Shown: positions 25,553 to 36,434 of the stretch, in pieces
Layout: each line of letters starts with the position of its first letter
Position numbering within the stretch: position 1 is the stretch's first letter
Assembly: GCA_963665115.1 (NCBI GenBank)
Contig: OY762007.1
Coordinates: 3,104,001-3,168,000, forward strand
DNA: 64,000 bases
From: an uncultured Rivularia sp.
Lineage (GTDB): Bacteria > Cyanobacteriota > Cyanobacteriia > Cyanobacteriales > Nostocaceae
Direction: 5' to 3'
The notes under the pieces: generated by a model
Seen by the model: the letters and a program-made list of their open reading frames with translations, nothing else
Databases searched by the model: none
What the model was told of the DNA's origin: nothing
Program-made: the position numbers and the translations under genes

Positions 25553-26231
25553 TTATTCACTCAAATCTCCAAAACGTTCTCGATAACGAGCTAAAAGAGC
25601 TTCAGCTTCATTTGCACGATTTTCTGCTTCCTGTCTTGCTTGAGTTTCTTCCTGAAGTTTGGTTGCTAATTCGTCGGGAATTAATAATTTTTCTCCAGTA
25701 TCTTCGCGGTAAAAACCGATTAATTCATCTTCTATAGCTAAACGTAATTTTAAAGGTTCGCTGCGGCTATCTGTAATTAATTGGTAGCTTTCCCCTTGCA
25801 AACGATAGCCGCGCAATTTTTCTTCAATCCATTCACCTTTTGGATCGAAAAGCCAATATTCTTGTACTTCTAACTGTTCGTACAAGGTTTTTTTATGCTC
25901 TATATCTTGGTTTTTTGTACCCTTAGATGTAATTTCAAAAATAACTGAAGGTACTTTACCTTCTTCCCAAGTTTTATAATTATCTCTACCTCCTGGTGCA
26001 ACATCAAAAATTACCATTACGTCAGGAGCTACTCTTAATTTTGGGAAACCTTGAGCGTAATATAAAAATTGATTTGCTAAAACGGTTGCCTGTTGTCCTG
26101 TAAGGTATTGTCGCAATACTTCGAGGGCTGTTAATAAAGCGTAGAGGTGGGTATAAGTTTCAGCCACGGGTTTCACCGTCGGAACTTGGATAGAAGATTT
26201 GAGACTTTGGTTTAGAAGTGGTAATTGCCAT
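25553..26231 (-). CDS. Uma2 (DUF820) family endonuclease-like protein (frameshift near 26171)
   Basis: MAITT…YPSSDGEPVAET after correction; APDVMV, FEITS, EYWLFDP. Confidence 0.88.
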
Positions 26232-26278
26232 GTTCTCAGGTTTTGGGGTTTACGTCTATTATGACGTTGACAGAAACA

Positions 26279-26450
26279 TTAGTTAAGTTGCTCAAAAAAA
26301 CGTTTGAGTTTATCTTTATCCAGTTTGTCATTACTGCGAACTCCACTACATACATCAAGTGCGAAAGGTGCGACTTGAGTTACTGCTAAAGCGGCGTTTT
26401 CGGGTTTTAATCCTCCCGCAAGAAAGATTGGTATTTTTAGGCGATCGCTT
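26279..26450 (-). pseudogene. C-terminal remnant of phosphoribosylanthranilate isomerase (TrpF-like)
   Basis: Manual translation …IPIFLAGGLKPENAALAVTQVAPFALDVCSGVRSNDKLDKDKLKRFFEQLN*; in-frame stop upstream near 26471. Confidence 0.8.
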
Positions 26451-26654
26451 ATTATCAAGTCCGTTTTAATTCACATCTGACACCAGTTGCAATAATCGCC
26501 TTGGAATAAATTCCCAGGCTAAAAAACAAAGTCTGATGAATCAGACTGGGCTTGTTGAGAATGATGCAAAAAGTCCGTTTTCATGGACTGGAAATCTCAT
26601 TATTTAGATATTGTAATATTTATAATTAGTTACTTAATTAAATAGGTGTAATCT

Positions 26655-27689
26655 ATGACTGGGATGAAAAAAAAGCGTCAATTTAAAACTTTCAGTAAAC
26701 CTGCTTTGATAAGGCTTGGTATTTTGCTGTTTATTTTATCAAGTGTTGTTAGCTGGCTATGGTTTACATCTTTCCAAATGCCGAGAAATAGCTACAGTGG
26801 TGAATTACTTCCTTTAACCGCACAAGAAAAGATTATTCAAGATAATTTACAACGAGATATTAATAAGTTAGCTGTTGAAATTGGAGCGCGTAATTATAAT
26901 AATTATGAAAATCTGAATGCTGCTGCGGATTTTATAGAATCTTCTTTTAAGGAAGCTGGCTATAAAGTAAATCAGCAAGAATATCAAATAAATAATAAAA
27001 CTTTTGCTAATTTAGAAGTTGAAATTAAAGGTGTTGAGAAACCCGATGAAATTGTAATTGTTGGCGGACATTATGATACGGCTTTTAATACTCCTGGCGC
27101 TAATGATAACGGTTCGGGTGTTGCTGCGGTGTTGGAATTAGCGCGGAGATTTGCAGATGAAAAGCCAAATAGAACTTTACGATTCGTGGAATTTACGAAT
27201 GAGGAACCACCTTATTTTTGGACTGAAAATATGGGTAGTTTGGTTTATGCGAAGGGTTGTAAAGAAAGGAATGAGAATGTTGTAGCAATGTTGAGTTTAG
27301 AAACTATGGGTTATTTTTCTGAGGAAGAAGAAAGTCAAAAATATCCGTTTCCACTGAATTTAATTTATCCTTCTCAAGGTAATTTTATTGCTTTTGTGGG
27401 AGATATAAATTCTAGTCAACTTGTAAAAAAGGCTATTGGTTACTTTCGCAAACAGGTAAAATTTCCATCTGAAGGTTTAGCCATTTTTAATCAACTTCCT
27501 GGTGTTGGATGGTCAGATCATTGGTCATTTTGGCAGCAAGGTTATCAAGGTATTATGGTTACTGATACCGCGCCTTTTCGCTACAAGTATTATCATACTT
27601 TGGACGATATTCCCGATCGGATTGATTATGAAAAATTAGCGCGAGTTGTATCGGGTTTGGAGAAGGTTGTTGGGGAATTTGTTAGTTGA
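26655..27689 (+). CDS. M28-family metallopeptidase
   Basis: GHYDT, GANDNGSG, NEEPP, SDH motifs; N-terminal TM. Confidence 0.9.
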   Translation: MTGMKKKRQFKTFSKPALIRLGILLFILSSVVSWLWFTSFQMPRNSYSGELLPLTAQEKIIQDNLQRDINKLAVEIGARNYNNYENLNAAADFIESSFKEAGYKVNQQEYQINNKTFANLEVEIKGVEKPDEIVIVGGHYDTAFNTPGANDNGSGVAAVLELARRFADEKPNRTLRFVEFTNEEPPYFWTENMGSLVYAKGCKERNENVVAMLSLETMGYFSEEEESQKYPFPLNLIYPSQGNFIAFVGDINSSQLVKKAIGYFRKQVKFPSEGLAIFNQLPGVGWSDHWSFWQQGYQGIMVTDTAPFRYKYYHTLDDIPDRIDYEKLARVVSGLEKVVGEFVS

Positions 27690-27702
27690 AGATTTGCATC
27701 CA

Positions 27703-27820
27703 GAGCGCCCGCAGGCTCGAAGCCTGGGGCTACAATTACAAAGCCCACCTTCGTGGGCTAAAGATTCCTAGCCCATGAAGGTGGGCTTCGTAAATGTAGC
27801 GATACCCTTATAGGGTATTG
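27703..27820. repeat. Cluster of short palindromic dispersed repeats
   Basis: AGCCCACCTTCGTGGGCT and AGCCCATGAAGGTGGGCT inverted pair plus flanking hairpins between convergent genes. Confidence 0.65.
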
Positions 27821-27827
27821 CTACTAA

Positions 27828-28412
27828 TTATGCAGAGCTTCCGCTTTCTCCTTTCATGACTGCGGCAGAAATCAAATGTGCTAATCGCAATGCTTCGGGT
27901 ACTTTTCCGCAATCGGTTAATTTTTCTAATACTTTGGCAATGATTTCTGGCTCTTCACCACATACTTGAAATACAAAGGGTAAATATTCGTAAATTGTAC
28001 CCGCACGCTTTAATAATTCTTGGCGTTTTTCTAAGTTTGGTAAACGACTCATTGCGTCGATAACTGCTTCTAAATCAGGTTGACGACGCATCACGGCGAC
28101 GCAGGGAAGTTGGAGTTTTTCGGCTAAGGTTGGTAAGTCAACAACGTTAAATCCACCAAAGCCAATTCCGTCGAGCAATACTATATGTAATTGCGGTAAA
28201 AATTTGCTGTCAAGTAATAATTTGCAAATGGTTTCTGTGGAATCAAAACCATCTTGCTGTAACTCTCCCCAAACCATTCCTTCAAATCGAGTTGCCGCAC
28301 AAATTATTCCTGCTAAATTAACTTTTTTATTAGCACCACGAATAAATGGTGCGTCGTCGAAGCCAATTACGCGAATTGTACGGTTTAGTTTGAGGAGAGA
28401 TTCGAGATTCAT
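27828..28412 (-). CDS. DUF99 (endonuclease V-like) protein
   Basis: IGFDDAPF, LLDGIGFGGFNVVD, PEALRLAH. Confidence 0.88.
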   Translation of the reverse strand: MNLESLLKLNRTIRVIGFDDAPFIRGANKKVNLAGIICAATRFEGMVWGELQQDGFDSTETICKLLLDSKFLPQLHIVLLDGIGFGGFNVVDLPTLAEKLQLPCVAVMRRQPDLEAVIDAMSRLPNLEKRQELLKRAGTIYEYLPFVFQVCGEEPEIIAKVLEKLTDCGKVPEALRLAHLISAAVMKGESGSSA

Positions 28413-28554
28413 GGATTGAGAGAGTTAGGAATTAGGAGTGTAAAGATGTAGCAATGCTGCTTATGTAGGTGATTTAGCAGGAACGGAGTTATGATAAATT
28501 GACTTCTAGGATTAGTGTACTATCCTGCAAAAACCAGGGAAACTAAAGTTATTA

Positions 28555-28854
28555 ATGCACGTTATCAGCCGTAAAAAATTACGAGAATTTTGTCGAACAC
28601 ATGGAGACTGCGACGAAGCGCTAGATGACTGGTATAAAATTGCAAGTAAGGCTGAATGGGGAAACTTGATAGAGGTACAAACAGCTTTTCCTCAAGCAGA
28701 AGCGGTTGGAAATTTCACAGTTTTCAATATTAAAGGTAATAAATATAGATTGATTGTTAGTATTAATTATGAAAAACAGGTCATCTATGTAAAATATATC
28801 TTAACTCATGCACAATATGACAAAGATAAGTGGAAAAATGACCCTTACTATTAA
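28555..28854 (+). CDS. higB: HigB-family toxin
   Basis: MHVISRKKL…VFNIKGNKYRL…THAQYD. Confidence 0.92.
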   Translation: MHVISRKKLREFCRTHGDCDEALDDWYKIASKAEWGNLIEVQTAFPQAEAVGNFTVFNIKGNKYRLIVSINYEKQVIYVKYILTHAQYDKDKWKNDPYY

Positions 28855-29242
28855 TTCAGAAATTTATAGCGAATTACTGTCTAAATATCAACCTCGAATT
28901 ATTCAAACGGAAGCCGAAAATGAATATTTTTTAGAAGTTGTTGAAGAATTGCTAGCGCGGAAAGATCTTACACCGGAAGAAAATACAATTTTAGACTTAT
29001 TAGTCAAATTAATTGAAGATTTTGAAGATAAACACTATCAGTTAAATAAATCTACACCTCGTTCTCGAATGCTTCATTTAATGGAAGCCCAGGATATTGC
29101 TAAGGAAAGTTTAGTACAAGTTTTTGGTTCAGCTGAGATAGTTGATAAAGCCATCAACGGTGAATTAGAAATAACTTCACAACAGGCTTTAGATTTAGGG
29201 AATTTATTTCATGTTGATTCGATTTTATTTTTAAATGAGTAG
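28838..29242 (+). CDS. higA: HigA-family antitoxin (HTH)
   Basis: Overlaps higB; YQPRIIQTEAEN…LIEDFE followed by an XRE-like HTH. Confidence 0.85.
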   Translation: MTLTINSEIYSELLSKYQPRIIQTEAENEYFLEVVEELLARKDLTPEENTILDLLVKLIEDFEDKHYQLNKSTPRSRMLHLMEAQDIAKESLVQVFGSAEIVDKAINGELEITSQQALDLGNLFHVDSILFLNE

Positions 29243-29283
29243 GTGAGATAATAATAAAATATTCAAAAGTAGGTTTAATAATC

Positions 29284-29559
29284 ATGCAATCACTTTTCTG
29301 GACTGTCGAAGAAGTTGCTCGCAGAGCTAAAGAATTTTACGAAAATGGAATTCGCCAACAAGTTGAGCATGGCGATAATATTGGCAAGATGATTACGATT
29401 GATGCTGAAACTGGCGAGTACGGAATTGATAAAACTGGTATAGAAACTGCGATGAAGTTAAAGCAGAAAAAACCAATGGCTAGATTATTTACTATGCGGA
29501 TTGGTTACGATGTTGCTGTCAGTTTTGGTCATGCTCCGATGAACCGTACAGTTAAATGA
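29284..29559 (+). CDS. Small hypothetical partner of the aspartic protease
   Basis: GKMITIDAETGEY…RIGY; ATGA overlap with the next gene. Confidence 0.7.
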   Translation: MQSLFWTVEEVARRAKEFYENGIRQQVEHGDNIGKMITIDAETGEYGIDKTGIETAMKLKQKKPMARLFTMRIGYDVAVSFGHAPMNRTVK

Positions 29560-29933
29560 TTTACGGAAGAGTTACTGAAGGTAAAGCAACAATTCCAGTA
29601 ATTTTTCGTTTACCTTCACAGCCAGATTTTTCTGTGGATTTTGTCATTGATACTGGATTCAATGACTATCTAACGCTACCAATACAAGCAGTAAATATAA
29701 TGAATCTTCCTATATATTCGAGTATTTCTGCAAGATTAGCCGATGGTAGCGAAACTGTATTATCTGTACATTCAGCAACTATTATTTGGGATGATGTAGA
29801 AAAAGTAGTTCCTGTTTTAGCTTCTGGTTATAAACCTTTATTGGGAGTTGCTTTGATGGAAGGATATCATTTAGAGATTGATTTTGAAGAAAATGGTTTG
29901 GTTTCGTTGGAAAAAATATCGTCTGTGATGTGA
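29556..29933 (+). CDS. Clan AA (retropepsin-like) aspartic protease
   Basis: VIDTGF catalytic motif, LADG, PLLG. Confidence 0.88.
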   Translation: MIYGRVTEGKATIPVIFRLPSQPDFSVDFVIDTGFNDYLTLPIQAVNIMNLPIYSSISARLADGSETVLSVHSATIIWDDVEKVVPVLASGYKPLLGVALMEGYHLEIDFEENGLVSLEKISSVM

Positions 29934-30114: not shown

Positions 30115-33100
30115 TTATTTTCCACGTAAATATTCTAGATTTCTCCGAAAAGTCAACGTATTCGGGTGATTTTTACCCAAAACCCGTTCCGCAATCTCCA
30201 AAGCTTGGATATAAAGTGGTTCTGCTTGTTCGTAATTTCCTTGGGAACGGTAAAGTTCAGCTAAATTGTTCAAACTGGTTGCAACCAGGGGATGATTAAC
30301 TCCGAGTAGCTGTTTATATAACTCCAAAGCTTGGAGATACAGAGGTTCTGCTGCTTCGTACTTTCCTTGGGAACGGTAAAGTTCAGCTAAATTGTTCAAA
30401 CTAGTTGCAACGTCGGGATGATTTTCTCCGAGTAGCTGTTTATATAACTCCAAAGCTTTGAGATACAGAGGTTCTGCTGCTGTGTACCTTCCTTGGGAAT
30501 AGTAGAGTGCAGCTAAATTGTTCAAACTGCTTGCAATGTGAGGATGATTGACACCTAAAAGCCGTTCCGCAATCTCCAAAGCTTGGAGAAACAGAGGTTC
30601 GGCTGCTTCGTACCTTCCTTGGGAACTGTAGAGTTGAGCTAAATTGCTCAAATTGCTTGCAACGTCGGGATGATTTTCTCCGAGTAGCTGTTTTCTTAAC
30701 TCCAAAGCTTGGAGATAAAGAGCTTCTGCTGCTTCGTACCTTCCTTGAGAATAGTAGAGTAGTGCTAAATTGCTCAAACTCATTGCAACGTGAGGATGAT
30801 TTTCTCCGAATAGCTGTTTATATAACCCTAACGCTTGAAGAAACAGAGGTTCTGCTGCTTCGTACCTTCCTTGGGAATAGTAGAGTAGTGCTAAATTGCT
30901 CAAACTCGTTGCAACTTGAGGATGATTAACTCCGAGTAGCTGTTTACATAAATGCAAAGCTTGGAGGTAAAGAGGTTCTGCTGCTTCGTACCTTCCTTGA
31001 GAATAGTAGAGTAGTGCTAAATTGCTCAAACTCATTGCAACGTGAGGATGATTTTCTCCGAATAGCTGTTTGTATAACTTCAATGCTTGGAGGTACAGAG
31101 GTTCTGCTGCTTCGTAACTTCCTTGGGAATAGTAGAATTGAGCTAAATTGTTCAAACTGGTTGCAACTTCGGGATGATTTTCTCCGAGTAGCTTTTTTCC
31201 TAATTCCAAAGCTTGGAGGTAGAGAGGTTCGGCTGCTTCGTACCTTCCTTGGGAACTGTAGAGTAGTGCTAAATTGTTCAAACTAGTTGTAACACCGGGA
31301 TGATTCTCTCCGAGTAGCTGTTTGTATAACTCCAATGATTGGAGAAACAGAGGTTTCTGCTGCTTCGTACCTCCCTTGGGAATAATAGAGTTGAGCTAAA
31401 TTGTTTAAACTCATTGCAACGTCGGGATGATTTTCTCCGAGTAGCTGTTTGTATAATTCCAATGCTTGGAGAAACAGAGGTTCGGCTGCTTCGTACCTTC
31501 CTTGAGAATAGTAGAGTTGAGCTAAATTGTTCAAACTCAATGCAACGCGGGGATGATTTTCTCCGAATAGCTGTTTGTATAGCTCCAATGCTTGGAGGTA
31601 CAGAGGTTCGGCTGCTTCGTACCTTCCTTGGGAATAGTAGAGTTGAGCTAAATTGTTTAAACTCATTGCAACGCGGGGATGATTAACTCCGAGTGGCTGT
31701 TTGTATAACTCTAATGCTTGGAGGTACAGAGGTTCGGCTGCTTCGTACCTTCCTTGGGAATAGTAGAGTTGAGCTAAATTGTTCAAACTGGTTGCAACGT
31801 CGGGATGATTTTCTCCAAGTAGCTGTTTTCTTAATTCCAAAGCTTGGAGATGCAGAGGTTCGGCTGCTTCATACCTTCCTTGGGAATTGTAGAGATAAGC
31901 TAAATTGTTCAAACTGGTTGCAACGTCGGGATGATTTTCTCCTAAGCGAGATATGACTGCTGAAACACATTGCTGACACCAGGGTTCTGCTAATGCATAT
32001 AAACCCTGTCCCTTGTAAAATCCAGCTAAACTAGTAAAAGCCAAAAGTAAATTTTTATTGCTGAGTGCATCGGTTAAGTTTTCGGTGACTTCTGTTAAGT
32101 GGGGAATAGCTGTTTTTACTGAGTTGATAAAATCTATGGTTGGTGTATCGGGAATTGTTTGAGCAATTTCGATAAAAGTAGTGATAAATGCTTGTTTGAT
32201 TTTGTCAATATCAGAATCTACTGTTAATTTTACTTTTAAAAATTCTCGAATTAAGGGATGTATTTTGTAATAATATTCTTCATCTTCTTCCAAACACTGT
32301 ACTAAGTGACGTTGGTAAATTTGCTCGATTCCTAACTCAACCACAGATTCATTCCAATTGAGGTGTTGAGTCATGGAATCTGCCCATTCCCAAGCAAAAA
32401 TATCGGCTGCAAATAAACTTAATAAACTTGCAATTTGCTGTGTTTGCGGATTCAATTCCACCCAACTAATTTCAAATGCTGCTAAAACCCCACGCTGTGC
32501 TGTACTTAGAGTTTTGTACTGAGGATTTAATGCTTCTTGATGCAGTCGCTGCTGTTTCAACTGCTCTAACATTTTCGCTAAGGTGAAATGGGGAGGTTTT
32601 TTAACTATATATCGTCCAACTAATTCTATTCCTAATGGTAAATATCCCAACCATTGACATAATTCTTGGGCTGTTGCGAACTCCTTATTTACTTTCTTTT
32701 CACCAATAATATTAATTAATAACTGTAATGCTTCTTCTAGTGACAGCACATCGAGGGAAATTTCCTCAATATTAGTGTCAATATTTCGCAATCGAGTTGT
32801 CAGCAAAATTCGGAAGCGATTATTTGCGGGAATTATTTCAGAAAACTCTTCTAAATTCGTCACATCATCCAAAACCACCAATACTAAACCCTCGGATGGT
32901 TGCCAATTTTGCCAGCACCAAGCTACTTGTTGATGCAGTGTCAACACATTCCCATGAAAATCCTGCTGGGGAACTTCTAAACCCATTTGTAGCTGCACAA
33001 ATTGAATAATCCCCGCTGCTATATTCCCATTTCTGGCATTTAACCAACAAACTCCACCAGGATAATCATTTGTATGTTCCCTAGCATATTTTACCGCTAA

Positions 33101-33346
33101 TTCGGTTTTTCCCACACCACCCATTCCCGCAACAGCAGAAATTACTACGGTGTTATTTTTTCGGTGCAATTTTTCATTAATTGTTGCTAATTCTTCACTG
33201 CGTCCGACAAAATGAGGAATACAGGGATAGGGAATATGTTTAATAACAGATACAGTTTTTTGTGGTGGGTATGAAATAAAAGTATTACCTTCAATCTTAT
33301 TATTTCCACTTTGTACATTTATGCCTTGGAAATTTTTTTCTGTCAT
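30115..33346 (-). CDS. NLR-like STAND protein: short N-terminal motif, NB-ARC, about 15 TPRs (about 1076 aa after removing an extra T near 31354-31356)
   Basis: FVGR, Walker A GMGGVGKT, Walker B LVVLDDV, TTR, GYLPL, IHPL; 42-aa TPRs; ORFs 31283..33346 and 30115..31335 join. Confidence 0.92.
30150..31945 (-). repeat. Tandem 126-bp TPR-encoding repeats (14 near-identical units)
   Basis: Recurrent GENHPxVAxSLxNLAxLYxSQGRYEAAEPLyLQALEL with high nucleotide identity. Confidence 0.95.
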
Positions 33347-33423
33347 TTTAAATAAATTTTAATGATAATTTTAGGACTCATGCACATCGTAATCAATGGT
33401 TTGTTTTTCCTCTAACTGTCGGA

Positions 33424-33449
33424 AGACGTAGCACTGCTACGTCTCTACA
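33424..33449. repeat. Palindromic dispersed repeat, copy 1
   Basis: AGACGTAGCACTGCTACGTCTCTACA, identical to 34084-34109. Confidence 0.85.
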
Positions 33450-33493
33450 AACCGTCAGATTTTGTGAGAAAGAGGTTAGGGATAGGTTATGTT

Positions 33494-33916
33494 TTATTTT
33501 CCGAAGCTAAAAGTGTTATTACTAATAGTATTATTTCCACCTTTAATATTTATTCCTTGCCAATTTTCATTAACAATCGTGGGATTTTGCGTTTTTAATT
33601 TCTGAGCTAATTGATTGAAAGCCGTTGCTAATTCTGTATTGTTATTAGCTTTTGCTTCTACTTCTTTACCTAATACTTCCAATGCTTTTTGTAATTTCGG
33701 TTGATTTTTAGCAGTATCCTCCACCATTTCTACTAATACTGCTTCGCCGATATTTTCTCGTTCTTTCGGAGGTAGCGCCAATTTTTCGGCTGTTTCTGGT
33801 GATATTGTCTTAAGTTCCTCAAAAGCGGTATCGTAAGCTTTGCTGATACCCCAATCAATCAACTTTTCACCTAAAAAAAGAAGTAAGGCGATCGCACCAG
33901 TTGTCAAAGGTTCCAT
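33494..33916 (-). CDS. Small helical protein with C-terminal N/G-rich motif; candidate Bell/HeLo-like NLR effector
   Basis: Hydrophobic/amphipathic N-terminal helix MEPLTTGAIALLLFLGEKLIDW; C-terminal motif matches the NLR N-terminus. Confidence 0.8.
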   Translation of the reverse strand: MEPLTTGAIALLLFLGEKLIDWGISKAYDTAFEELKTISPETAEKLALPPKERENIGEAVLVEMVEDTAKNQPKLQKALEVLGKEVEAKANNNTELATAFNQLAQKLKTQNPTIVNENWQGINIKGGNNTISNNTFSFGK

Positions 33917-34083: not shown

Positions 34084-34109
34084 AGACGTAGCACTGCTAC
34101 GTCTCTACA
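34084..34109. repeat. Palindromic dispersed repeat, copy 2
   Basis: Identical to 33424-33449, same orientation. Confidence 0.85.
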
Positions 34110-35572: not shown

Positions 35573-36434
35573 ATGAGCGTTGCACAATCTAATTTTCAAA
35601 ATCCGAAATCTAAAATCCAAAATCCAAAATCCAAAATTCCTCAATTCTCTTTGCCTTGGGGAATTACTATTGGTTATCTAACTATTATGCTGTTGCTTCC
35701 GGTGACAGCTTTAGTTTTACAAGCTTCTCAGGTGGGGTTAAGCGAGTTTTGGCGGATTGCTACTAGCGCGATCGCACTTTCTGCTTACAATGTCACTTTT
35801 GTGACTGCGTTGGTGGCAACTGCTGTTAATGGTGCTTTTGGTTTATTAATTGCTTGGGTACTTGTGAGATATGACTTTCCGCTGAAGCGTTTTGTTGATG
35901 CGGCGATCGATCTACCTTTTGCTTTGCCCACGGCGGTAGCAGGTTTAACTTTAGCTAATGTCTATTCTGAGAATGGCTGGATTGGCTCTTTGCTTGCACC
36001 GTTGGGTATTAAAGTTGCTTTCAGTCGCTTTGGTGTGTTTGTGGCAATGCTGTTTATTTCGCTACCATTTATCGTGCGAGCGTTGCAGCCTGTGTTGCAA
36101 GAAATGGAACACGATACAGAAGAAGCGGCTTGGAGTCTGGGAGCGTCGAAGTTTCAAACTTTTTGGCAAGTAATTTTTCCACCTTTATTTCCAGCTTTGT
36201 TAACAGGTATTGCTTTAGGCTTTTCTCGTGCTGTCGGAGAGTACGGTTTCGATTGTAATTATCTCTTCAAATATTGCGTTCAAAGATTTAATTGCATCGG
36301 TGTTAATTTTTCAACGTTTGGAACAATATGATTACGCTGGTGCAACTGTAATTGGAACTGTACTTTTAGGAATTTCGCTGTTAATTTTATTAGCAATTAA
36401 CTTATTACAAGCTTGGGGAAAGAGGTATCAATAA
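35573..36434 (+). CDS. cysT: Sulfate ABC permease (frameshift near 36247-36249)
   Basis: [33 protein letters not shown]; ORFs 35573..36331 and 36228..36434 join. Confidence 0.93.

What the first reader, a model, noticed from the sequence alone, without database searches (positions are those of the whole stretch)
30115..33916. Candidate amyloid-signalling NLR and effector pair sharing a RHIM-like motif
Seen: the 140-aa gene (33494-33916) lies directly upstream of, and co-oriented with, an NB-ARC-TPR gene. The effector's last residues NWQGINIKGGNNTISNNTF (about 33509-33565) align without gaps to the NLR's first residues NFQGINVQSGNNKIEGNTF (about 33278-33334): 12/19 identical, plus W/F and I/V. 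No other similarity between the two proteins is apparent. The NLR has no enzymatic N-terminal domain; the motif leads almost directly into the NB-ARC. The effector begins with a hydrophobic/amphipathic helix. Known: this is the layout of fungal NWD2/HET-S and bacterial Bell/BASS systems, where an oligomerising NLR templates amyloid folding of a shared motif to activate a membrane-targeting death domain. G-I-N-(I/V)-x-x-G-N-N-x-I also resembles the RHIM core (RIPK3 GVQVGDNN). Inference: this is a prion-like immune or cell-death switch in a filamentous cyanobacterium, possibly a motif family outside the described BASS set.
Basis: partly seen in the sequence, partly recalled or inferred. Interest (0 to 1): 0.92.

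Follow-up and report, generated by a model that had tools for sequence, protein, structure and literature searches.

The report
Amyloid immune switch with stop readthrough
This gene pair belongs to an already published cyanobacterial amyloid-signalling family (BASS7), but a sister locus in the same genome and many in related genomes keep effector and receptor in one reading frame, split only by a UGA stop and a conserved predicted RNA hairpin, so ribosomes likely read through the stop and make both proteins from one gene.

Summary
In detail: 12 of 19 identical residues, and 0 of 5000 shuffles score as high. The motif is neither new nor RHIM-like. It is BASS7 of the published Bell/NLR set, whose data file lists homologues 71% and 82% identical to this effector.

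The new result lies outside the window. The genome's second Bell locus has no separate receptor start and no receptor-side motif. Its Bell frame ends in UGA-C and continues in frame for 742 codons into NB-ARC-TPR. The junction element occurs in 187 of 389 family genomes. Of 132 distinct copies examined, 131 keep UGA and 126 run on in frame, against 0 in the other frames. A 5-bp stem covaries, and 14 copies carry BASS7. SelA and tRNA-Sec were not found in the genomes tested. The two layouts alternate on the NB-ARC tree.

Best reading: programmed UGA readthrough gives free effector plus a motif-bearing effector-receptor fusion. No protein-level evidence exists yet, and my literature searches found no report of it.

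The parts
33494..33916 (-). Bell-domain effector gene, 140 aa: hydrophobic N-terminal helix, helical bundle to about residue 110, C-terminal BASS7 motif
   Evidence: homologues P0019 (71%) and P0026 (82%) are in the published Bell-side BASS7 set
33509..33565 (-). effector-side BASS7 motif (residues 118-136)
   Evidence: class C12 = BASS7
33424..33448 (.). short palindromic dispersed repeat in the intergenic gap (428 copies in the genome at <=2 mismatches); not part of the system
33278..33334 (-). receptor-side BASS7 motif (residues 5-23)
   Evidence: similar NLR-side C12 entries
31283..33346 (-). NB-ARC-TPR receptor, first ORF (687 aa): motif, NB-ARC 52-280, 5 TPR units, then an off-frame tail
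31352..31356 (-). +1 base that shifts the frame inside the TPR array
   Evidence: (base at 31354 absent from X1 and X2 contigs, present in an X3 contig)
30115..31335 (-). rest of the TPR array (10 units) in the shifted frame

Best explanation
The window holds a two-gene Bell/BASS7/NB-ARC-TPR pair in which the activated receptor likely templates amyloid folding of the shared motif and so likely switches on a predicted membrane-targeting Bell domain, and its sister loci likely make the same two partners from one gene by reading through a UGA stop. SHOWN, window pair: shared motif, adjacency, BASS7 membership, domain content. INFERRED, window pair: ligand sensing by the TPRs, oligomerisation, amyloid templating and cell death. 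These come by analogy with BASS1/BASS3 (prion and fibril data) and Bab/Agp (abortive infection). SHOWN, one-gene layout (own genome at G000:C1:3088391 onward, stop at 3088808, about 15 kb before the window): the Bell-BASS frame ends in UGA, nearly always followed by C. An 8-nt spacer and a covarying 5-bp stem follow. The same frame continues into the NTPase, with no conserved start codon and no second motif copy. INFERRED, one-gene layout: most ribosomes stop and release free Bell-BASS. A minority insert an amino acid, probably Trp, and make Bell-BASS-NLR. On activation the fused receptors cluster an identical motif and seed the free effectors. This would fix an effector excess and let sensor modules be swapped without motif co-evolution.
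For: Window. In 21 two-gene pairs, cognate motifs average 13.5/19 identity against 11.8 for non-cognate (0 of 10000 permutations; kinship not removed). One-gene layout, found without selecting on the junction: 6 of the 27 Bell loci run on in frame past the stop, all 6 at UGA, and none at TAA, TAG or a sense codon. Breadth: 187 of 389 family genomes, 286 matches, 1 match in the reversed control. Of 132 distinct copies, 131 have UGA and 128 have C next. UGA-C ends only 96 of 4764 long frames in this genome. The upstream frame matches the Bell profile at E<=1e-3 in 125 of 132. Frame 0 runs >=100 codons, or stays open to the locus end, in 126 of 132; frames +1 and +2 do so in 0 of 132. There is no ATG/GTG/TTG between the stop and the conserved F.GR-type motif in 66 of 117. 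No receptor-side motif copy is seen: best score 28, 0 of 126 reach 40, against 72-118 in two-gene pairs. Stem: 98.5% of cells paired, 78 two-sided changes, 0 of 500 shuffles, slid controls <=37.6%. Third-position constraint extends to codons 11-13, outside the search pattern, then drops. Covariance model: 17 matches in 13 of 151 phylum genomes from 5 families, all at a Bell UGA; 15 of 17 are open >500 codons; 6 carry a frame-keeping 3-nt insertion in the loop. Layouts interleave on the NB-ARC tree: 11 changes, at least 6 forced by well-supported branches; the window receptor core is 75% identical to the genome's one-gene receptor. Two database fusion proteins have Trp at the stop position.
Against: No peptide, ribosome-profiling or reporter evidence for readthrough. 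No BASS7 amyloid or toxicity data in the papers seen. Single hairpins do not fold better than shuffles (z -0.62 to +0.34 in 6 of 6). The search pattern contained UGA (forced exactly in the 32 metagenome copies) and parts of the stem, and the structure was derived from the same sequences, so those counts lean in favour. In 51 of 117 copies an ATG/GTG/TTG lies before the F.GR motif, although at scattered positions. 6 of 132 copies close early. In some copies the read-on domain is CHASE2 or another non-NTPase domain. The tree is a quick search, not the finished careful one. The window receptor may be truncated, and 3 of its close relatives (L002, L003, L006) are broken near the start. One Trp-bearing fusion (P0064) could come from a gene caller reading UGA as Trp.
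Confidence: 0.68

Rival explanations
1. In the one-gene layout the receptor is made by re-initiation at a non-canonical codon just after the UGA. It is then a separate protein without the amyloid motif, and the hairpin tunes coupling or stabilises the Bell message.
For: CTG follows the stop in 50 of 132 copies. Two-gene relatives with a 4-nt overlap also read TGA-C at the junction. TTG or GTG lies before the F.GR motif in some copies.
Against: The next codon is CTA in 69 copies, and CCG, CCA or CAG in 7. The overlapping -1 frame closes after a median of 14 codons. Loop insertions keep the frame. A receptor without the motif would leave the conserved BASS tail with no partner. Re-initiation does not explain why the stop is almost always UGA.
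Confidence: 0.12
2. The UGA is recoded by another route: RNA editing of the paired stop codon, a dedicated suppressor tRNA, or selenocysteine insertion.
For: UGA plus a 3' hairpin is the layout of bacterial selenocysteine insertion (own knowledge). The stop itself can pair with a downstream AGUYA (93.6% of cells, no two-sided changes).
Against: SelA was found in 0 of 6 genomes tested. tRNA-Sec passed the cut-off in 0 of 5. No tRNA with a UCA anticodon is among the 56 in the own genome. Both tRNA-Trp genes have fully paired 5-bp anticodon stems. Editing could not be tested because no RNA run was available.
Confidence: 0.08
3. The window locus is a decayed or phase-variable copy: the +1 base is real and leaves a receptor with only 5 TPR units, so this pair no longer signals normally.
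For: An X3 contig bridges 31354 with the extra base, 0 differences over 181 nt, at depth 210 against 224 in unique sequence. Receptor ORFs are broken in several close relatives.
Against: All X1 and X2 contigs covering the site lack the base, although the longest listed has only 18 nt on one side. The housekeeping gene cysT and the genome's other TPR arrays are also split, one in the identical sequence context. That pattern fits systematic errors in the assembly's source reads.
Confidence: 0.4
4. The one-gene loci are all-in-one Bell-NLR genes inactivated by a nonsense mutation (pseudogenes).
For: Rare full fusions exist. One copy has TGG (L090).
Against: The stop is the same codon at the same boundary across six families and unrelated partners (NB-ARC, NACHT, CHASE2). 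Downstream frames are intact in 126 of 132, and the stem covaries.
Confidence: 0.03
5. One reading: a new, RHIM-related motif family outside BASS1-10.
For: Surface likeness of the Gly/Asn-rich beta-strand composition.
Against: Published class C12 = BASS7 holds near-identical motifs and close homologues. The RHIM core is absent.
Confidence: 0.01

Closest known systems
Bell/BASS7/NLR gene pairs (Dyrka et al., 10.1101/2020.01.06.895854; data in PMC8086366 supplement 1, class C12)
   Same: Motif sequence, Bell-type effector of about 140 aa, collinear adjacent NB-ARC-TPR gene with a short motif-bearing N-terminus, cyanobacterial host. Homologues of this effector are in the set.
   Different: The window receptor is frameshifted in the assembly. 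The preprint's main text describes two-gene pairs and 'all-in-one' fusions; it has no mention of readthrough or stop codons. One Bell-side BASS7 entry (K9WZH9 = P0052) has the same C-terminus as the Bell of the one-gene UGA locus L086.
Bab/Agp, BASS11 antiphage system of E. coli (10.1101/2024.11.07.622273)
   Same: Bell-related effector with a C-terminal amyloid motif, activated by an adjacent partner. It is the only tested biological function in the papers seen (abortive infection).
   Different: The partner is a TPR-GreA/B-PIN protein, not NB-ARC-TPR. The motif family differs. No structural match to the model was found here (inconclusive).
Fungal NWD2/HET-S and PP/HELLP pairs; RHIM (as described in the same preprint)
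   Same: Logic of a receptor N-terminal motif templating an effector C-terminal motif.
   Different: No G-phi-Q-phi-G core, no pseudo-repeat of the motif, and no detected homology to HeLo.
Programmed stop-codon readthrough with a 3' RNA structure (MuLV gag-pol, alphavirus UGA-CUA) and bacterial SECIS (recalled, from no call)
   Same: Leaky stop followed by C, a short spacer and a conserved stem; a minor long product and a major short product.
   Different: Bacterial chromosomal immune genes, no selenocysteine machinery, different sequence. No Rfam family matched (5 weak hits, all far below gathering score).

Membership tests
Bell/BASS7/NLR pair | Bell domain: about 100-aa helical bundle, hydrophobic first helix, acidic residue at position 2-3 | tested here: met
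   Glu2; KD 2.13 from residue 4; 7 helices over 3-110; 71% and 82% identical to proteins in the published Bell-side set. The authors' own Bell profile was not available.
Bell/BASS7/NLR pair | C-terminal motif of the BASS7 class | tested here: met
   C12 entries match the motif almost letter for letter; the README maps C12 to BASS7
Bell/BASS7/NLR pair | NB-ARC or NACHT gene within 5 kb with a 10-150 aa N-terminus carrying the same motif (local alignment >=15 aa, score >=40) | tested here: met
   147-nt gap; NB-ARC from residue 52; 23-aa ungapped alignment scoring 72 (criteria)
Bell/BASS7/NLR pair | intact receptor with a full repeat array | tested here: inconclusive
   +1 base present in X3, absent in X1 and X2
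Bell/BASS7/NLR pair | amyloid formation, cross-seeding, cell death | not testable with these tools
   shown in print for BASS1, BASS3 and BASS11 only, in the parts read
RHIM / PP / BASS3 | central G-phi-Q-phi-G signature | tested here: not met
   0 matches in either copy; signature; no Pfam RHIM hit at E<=1
HeLo / MLKL / Babybell fold | structural match to solved membrane-targeting death domains | tested here: inconclusive
   Foldseek: no match at E<=0.001; VIA-align best Z 5.0, rmsd 3.8, 79 aligned, to an unrelated protein
Bab/Agp (BASS11) | TPR-GreA/B-PIN partner | tested here: not met
   the partner is NB-ARC-TPR
Bacterial selenoprotein with SECIS (one-gene loci) | in-frame UGA followed by a hairpin | tested here: met
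Bacterial selenoprotein with SECIS (one-gene loci) | SelA and tRNA-Sec in the genome | tested here: not met
   SelA 0 of 6 genomes, all 96-100% complete; tRNA-Sec over cut-off 0 of 5; SelB and SelD not searched
Programmed stop-codon readthrough (one-gene loci) | conserved leaky stop, conserved 3' element, downstream frame kept and lacking its own conserved start | tested here: met
Programmed stop-codon readthrough (one-gene loci) | extended protein detected and dependent on the 3' element | not testable with these tools
   needs proteomics, ribosome profiling or reporters

The most novel reading that the evidence does not exclude
Filamentous cyanobacteria run amyloid-based immune signalling from single recoded genes. 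A conserved UGA-plus-hairpin (possibly pseudoknot) cassette lets ribosomes make a large pool of free Bell death effector and a small pool of Bell-BASS-NLR receptor with an identical amyloid motif. The cassette is shuffled in front of NB-ARC, NACHT and even CHASE2 sensors, and it converts repeatedly to and from the two-gene layout seen in the window. It would be a widespread, structure-stimulated, non-selenocysteine programmed readthrough in bacterial chromosomes. It would also mean that hundreds of cyanobacterial receptors are annotated with wrong starts.
Probability: 0.7. Interest if true: 0.85.

Novelty: new variant of a known kind. Interest (0 to 1): 0.7.

Why it matters
The window pair alone is an ordinary new member of BASS7, worth about 0.25. 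The one-gene layout matters in three ways. (1) Programmed, structure-dependent stop readthrough is well known in viruses and eukaryotes but has few natural bacterial cases outside selenocysteine (own knowledge). Here a 45-nt cassette found in 187 of 389 genomes of one family gives a direct reporter test. (2) It offers a reason why many Bell-BASS genes have no annotated motif-bearing receptor, and a neat solution to receptor-effector motif matching and stoichiometry. (3) The function of bacterial Bell/NLR pairs is stated to be unresolved (10.1101/2024.11.07.622273). The UGA gives a single switch (stop-only, leaky or always fused) for dissecting it.

Tried and rejected
Fold searches of the effector model found no clear match. 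Profile searches against PDB sequences, Pfam, NCBIfam and PADLOC named no family for the effector. The Atlas gave unnamed cyanobacterial clusters, one with HetE-N on 18% of members; this is a lead only.

A 15-nt pattern with 1 mismatch was at chance level (376 of 401 genomes, control alike). It did yield 3 true junctions among 30 loci. One search used a pattern with one letter too many, so its 0 of 401 is void.

Single-sequence folding gave no stability signal. A pseudoknot (loop GGGA with downstream UCCC) pairs in 90.6% of cells but has only 9 two-sided changes, so I do not claim it.

No element was found in viral contigs (exact pattern), in the window, or in the 21 loci L001-L021. No RNA holder was listed. 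The read check on the cysT frameshift could not be made, so artefact versus real stays open.

Ribosomal hopping was rejected because the codon before the stop varies freely. A +1 frameshift of the prfB type was rejected because frame +1 closes after a median of 8 codons. A 4-bp-stem tRNA-Trp as cause was not supported in the own genome (idea from PMC13092985 passages). Look-ups in earlier scan findings returned nothing.
Full report
1. Observation. The 140-aa ORF (33494-33916, minus strand) and the ORF starting at 33346 are co-oriented and 147 nt apart. The two 19-mers lie at the stated coordinates and share 12 identities. The best ungapped score is 72, against a shuffle mean of 21 and maximum of 53; 0 of 5000 shuffles reached it. 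The receptor has NB-ARC at 52-280 and TPR repeats, with no enzyme domain in front. This is the only such motif pair in the genome by a six-frame motif scan (2 hits).

2. Is the frameshift real? Contigs of three runs from one study were laid on the locus. In X3 a 181-nt contig bridges the site with the extra base at genome depth. In X1 and X2 all contigs covering it lack the base, though the longest listed has only 18 nt on one side. cysT in the window and the genome's two other TPR arrays are also split, one in the identical context. I put about 0.6 on a systematic error in the source reads and 0.4 on a real variant.

3. What the pair is. All 60 homologues with a source name are unnamed proteins, and those with an organism are cyanobacterial; the closest named are Rivularia, Richelia and Calothrix. 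The data file of PMC8086366 holds a motif class C12 nearly identical to ours, and its README maps C12 to BASS7 (17 non-redundant sequences). Its Bell-side list includes A0A1Z4M100 (= P0026, 82% identical over 74% of our effector), A0A0T7BPG0 (C-terminus identical to P0019, 71% over the full length) and K9WZH9 (= P0052). The RHIM-like class is BASS3, defined by G-phi-Q-phi-G, which neither copy has. Of 27 genomic loci found with the Bell core, 20 have a downstream ORF beginning with BASS7, 1 has none and 6 have another layout. Across 21 pairs including ours, cognate motifs share 13.5/19 residues and non-cognate 11.8 (0 of 10000 permutations). Kinship was not removed, and some pairs mix subtypes, so this is modest support for co-evolution. 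The effector model is helical over 3-110 with a low-confidence tail (pLDDT 79), and no fold match emerged. Verdict for the window: a new member of BASS7. The mechanism is inferred from BASS1/3 and Bab/Agp, not shown.

4. The other layout. In the six odd loci, and in the own genome's second Bell gene (G000:C1:3088391, locus L028, about 15 kb before the window), the Bell frame stops at UGA and the same frame continues. In the own genome it runs 742 codons into NB-ARC-TPR, with the first Met inside the P-loop. A 34-nt pattern built from ten such junctions, allowing 2 mismatches, hit 187 of 389 family genomes (286 matches; reversed control 1). Of the 150 matches listed, 149 keep TGA. I examined 138 matches, 132 distinct: the earlier loci, the 30 loci returned, 60 regions I picked from its list favouring divergent copies, and 37 metagenome loci in which the exact pattern forces TGA (32 distinct). 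L025 falls outside the pattern because of a 1-nt loop insertion that is compensated nearby; the model finds it. Counts: TGA 131, TGG 1; C next in 128; Bell profile E<=1e-3 in 125; upstream frame >=110 codons in 128; frame 0 long in 126; frames +1 and +2 long in 0; P-loop-like motif in 121. The Bell tails carry several motif types by eye, BASS7 in 14. Partners include NB-ARC, NACHT and CHASE2. There is no second motif copy after the stop: best score 28, 0 of 126 at 40 or more. No ATG/GTG/TTG precedes the conserved F.GR-type motif in 66 of 117; in the other 51 the candidates are scattered, the commonest being TTG 8 codons upstream in 26.

5. The RNA element. With U of UGA as 0, the three Watson-Crick pairs that stand out in corrected mutual information are 12-27 (rank 1), 14-25 (rank 2) and 15-24 (rank 7), all in one helix, 11-15 with 24-28. 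On 131 distinct 51-mers this helix is 98.5% paired with 78 two-sided changes; 0 of 500 shuffles match it and slid controls reach at most 37.6%. G-U alternatives point to the sense RNA strand. Caveats: the pattern fixed part of the stem, the structure came from these sequences, and single copies are no more stable than shuffles. Third codon positions stay constrained through codons 11-13, outside the pattern, then relax. A covariance model found 17 matches in 13 of 151 phylum genomes in 5 families. One is the own locus. All sit at a Bell UGA, 15 run on >500 codons, distant families show new compensated stems, and 6 have a 3-nt loop insertion that keeps the frame. Rfam has no match. A second stem that includes the stop, and a pseudoknot, are possible but have no or few two-sided changes.

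6. How the stop is passed. Selenocysteine is unlikely: SelA in 0 of 6 genomes, tRNA-Sec in 0 of 5, and no UCA tRNA in the own genome. UGA-C is the rarest stop context in this genome (96 of 4764). From my own knowledge it is also the weakest terminator in E. coli, and an 8-nt spacer before a stem recalls MuLV readthrough. Two of 5 longer database homologues are Bell-BASS7-NB-ARC fusions with Trp at the stop position, and L090 has TGG but breaks 30 codons later. Near-cognate Trp insertion is therefore the likeliest route. This step is inferred.

7. Link to the window. On a quick IQ-TREE of 101 NB-ARC cores (20 two-gene, 81 UGA-type; cores under 150 aa or lacking the GMGG-type P-loop left out), the layout label needs 11 changes, at least 6 forced by well-supported branches. 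The window core is 75% identical to the own genome's UGA-type receptor, and 7 of the 19 related two-gene receptors (L001, L003, L008, L014, L015, L019 and none closer among pairs for these; L016 and L018 are closest to each other) are not counted as proof; the plain reading is that six of them are closer to a UGA-type receptor than to any other two-gene one. The two layouts are interchangeable ways of putting the same motif in front of the same receptor. This is the strongest functional argument for readthrough.

8. Literature. 10.1101/2020.01.06.895854: parts 1-3, 5 and 6 of 10 read, plus passage searches; figures and supplements not seen; no 'readthrough' or 'stop codon' in the main text. 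PMC8086366: abstract, sections 6 and 10, and supplement 1 (cut) by part 1 and searches. 10.1101/2024.11.07.622273: part 1 of 8 and passages. PMC12261475: part 1 of 6. PMC13506858, PMC7918605, PMC13092985, PMC7889193 and PMC9815663: passages only; none mentions readthrough in Bell/NLR loci, and PMC7918605 does not mention cyanobacteria. Searches combining readthrough with NLR, Bell, amyloid or cyanobacteria returned 0 papers or listings whose titles and abstract openings did not bear on it. The journal version of the BASS paper is not held, and most subscription papers are not searched, so prior mention cannot be excluded.

9. Verdict. The finding as written is a known family (interest about 0.25). 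Following it led to a likely programmed-readthrough form of the same system: probability about 0.7, interest 0.85 if true. Overall interest 0.7; new variant of a known kind.

Noticed in passing
G000:C1:3088391-3092255 (L028:4392-8256), about 15 kb before the window: Second Bell locus, UGA-plus-hairpin type, in frame with NB-ARC-TPR. Its TPR array has a frameshift in the same sequence context as the window's.
   Followed up: yes
L029:4116-6667 (G000:C1:5374115 onward): Third Bell/NB-ARC-TPR locus, two-gene layout with a 4-nt gap. The motif resembles BASS4 entries by eye. It lies near tRNA-Pro, a transposase-like ORF and three Uma2-like ORFs, and its last TPR units are in a separate ORF.
   Followed up: partly
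window 35573-36434: The sulfate permease cysT-like gene is split by a frameshift near 36245, which hints at indel errors in the assembly.
   Followed up: partly
window 33424-33448 and 34084-34108: A 25-nt palindromic repeat flanks the effector gene on both sides; 428 copies in the genome at <=2 mismatches.
   Followed up: partly
window 25553-29933: A Uma2 gene, a HigB toxin with a likely antitoxin and two small unnamed ORFs lie just downstream of the receptor: a small defence-like or mobile patch between asnS and the sulfate operon.
   Followed up: partly
L023, L067, L083, L026: The UGA cassette leads into CHASE2 or other non-NTPase, partly membrane-spanning domains. On the Calothrix NIES-22 plasmid it is annotated as two genes with a 72-nt gap.
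   Followed up: partly
L001, L002, L003, L006: The closest two-gene relatives often have shortened or frameshifted receptor ORFs; real decay or long-read errors.
   Followed up: no
P0067, P0068: Bell-BASS7 also occurs as the C-terminal part of longer proteins with CHAT (PF12770) or hydrolase-type (PF07819) N-termini.
   Followed up: no
G000:C1:203200-203273 and 2710034-2711354: ARAGORN calls a tRNA with anticodon CUA, and a tRNA array holding a second tRNA-Trp. Whether either affects stop decoding is untested.
   Followed up: no
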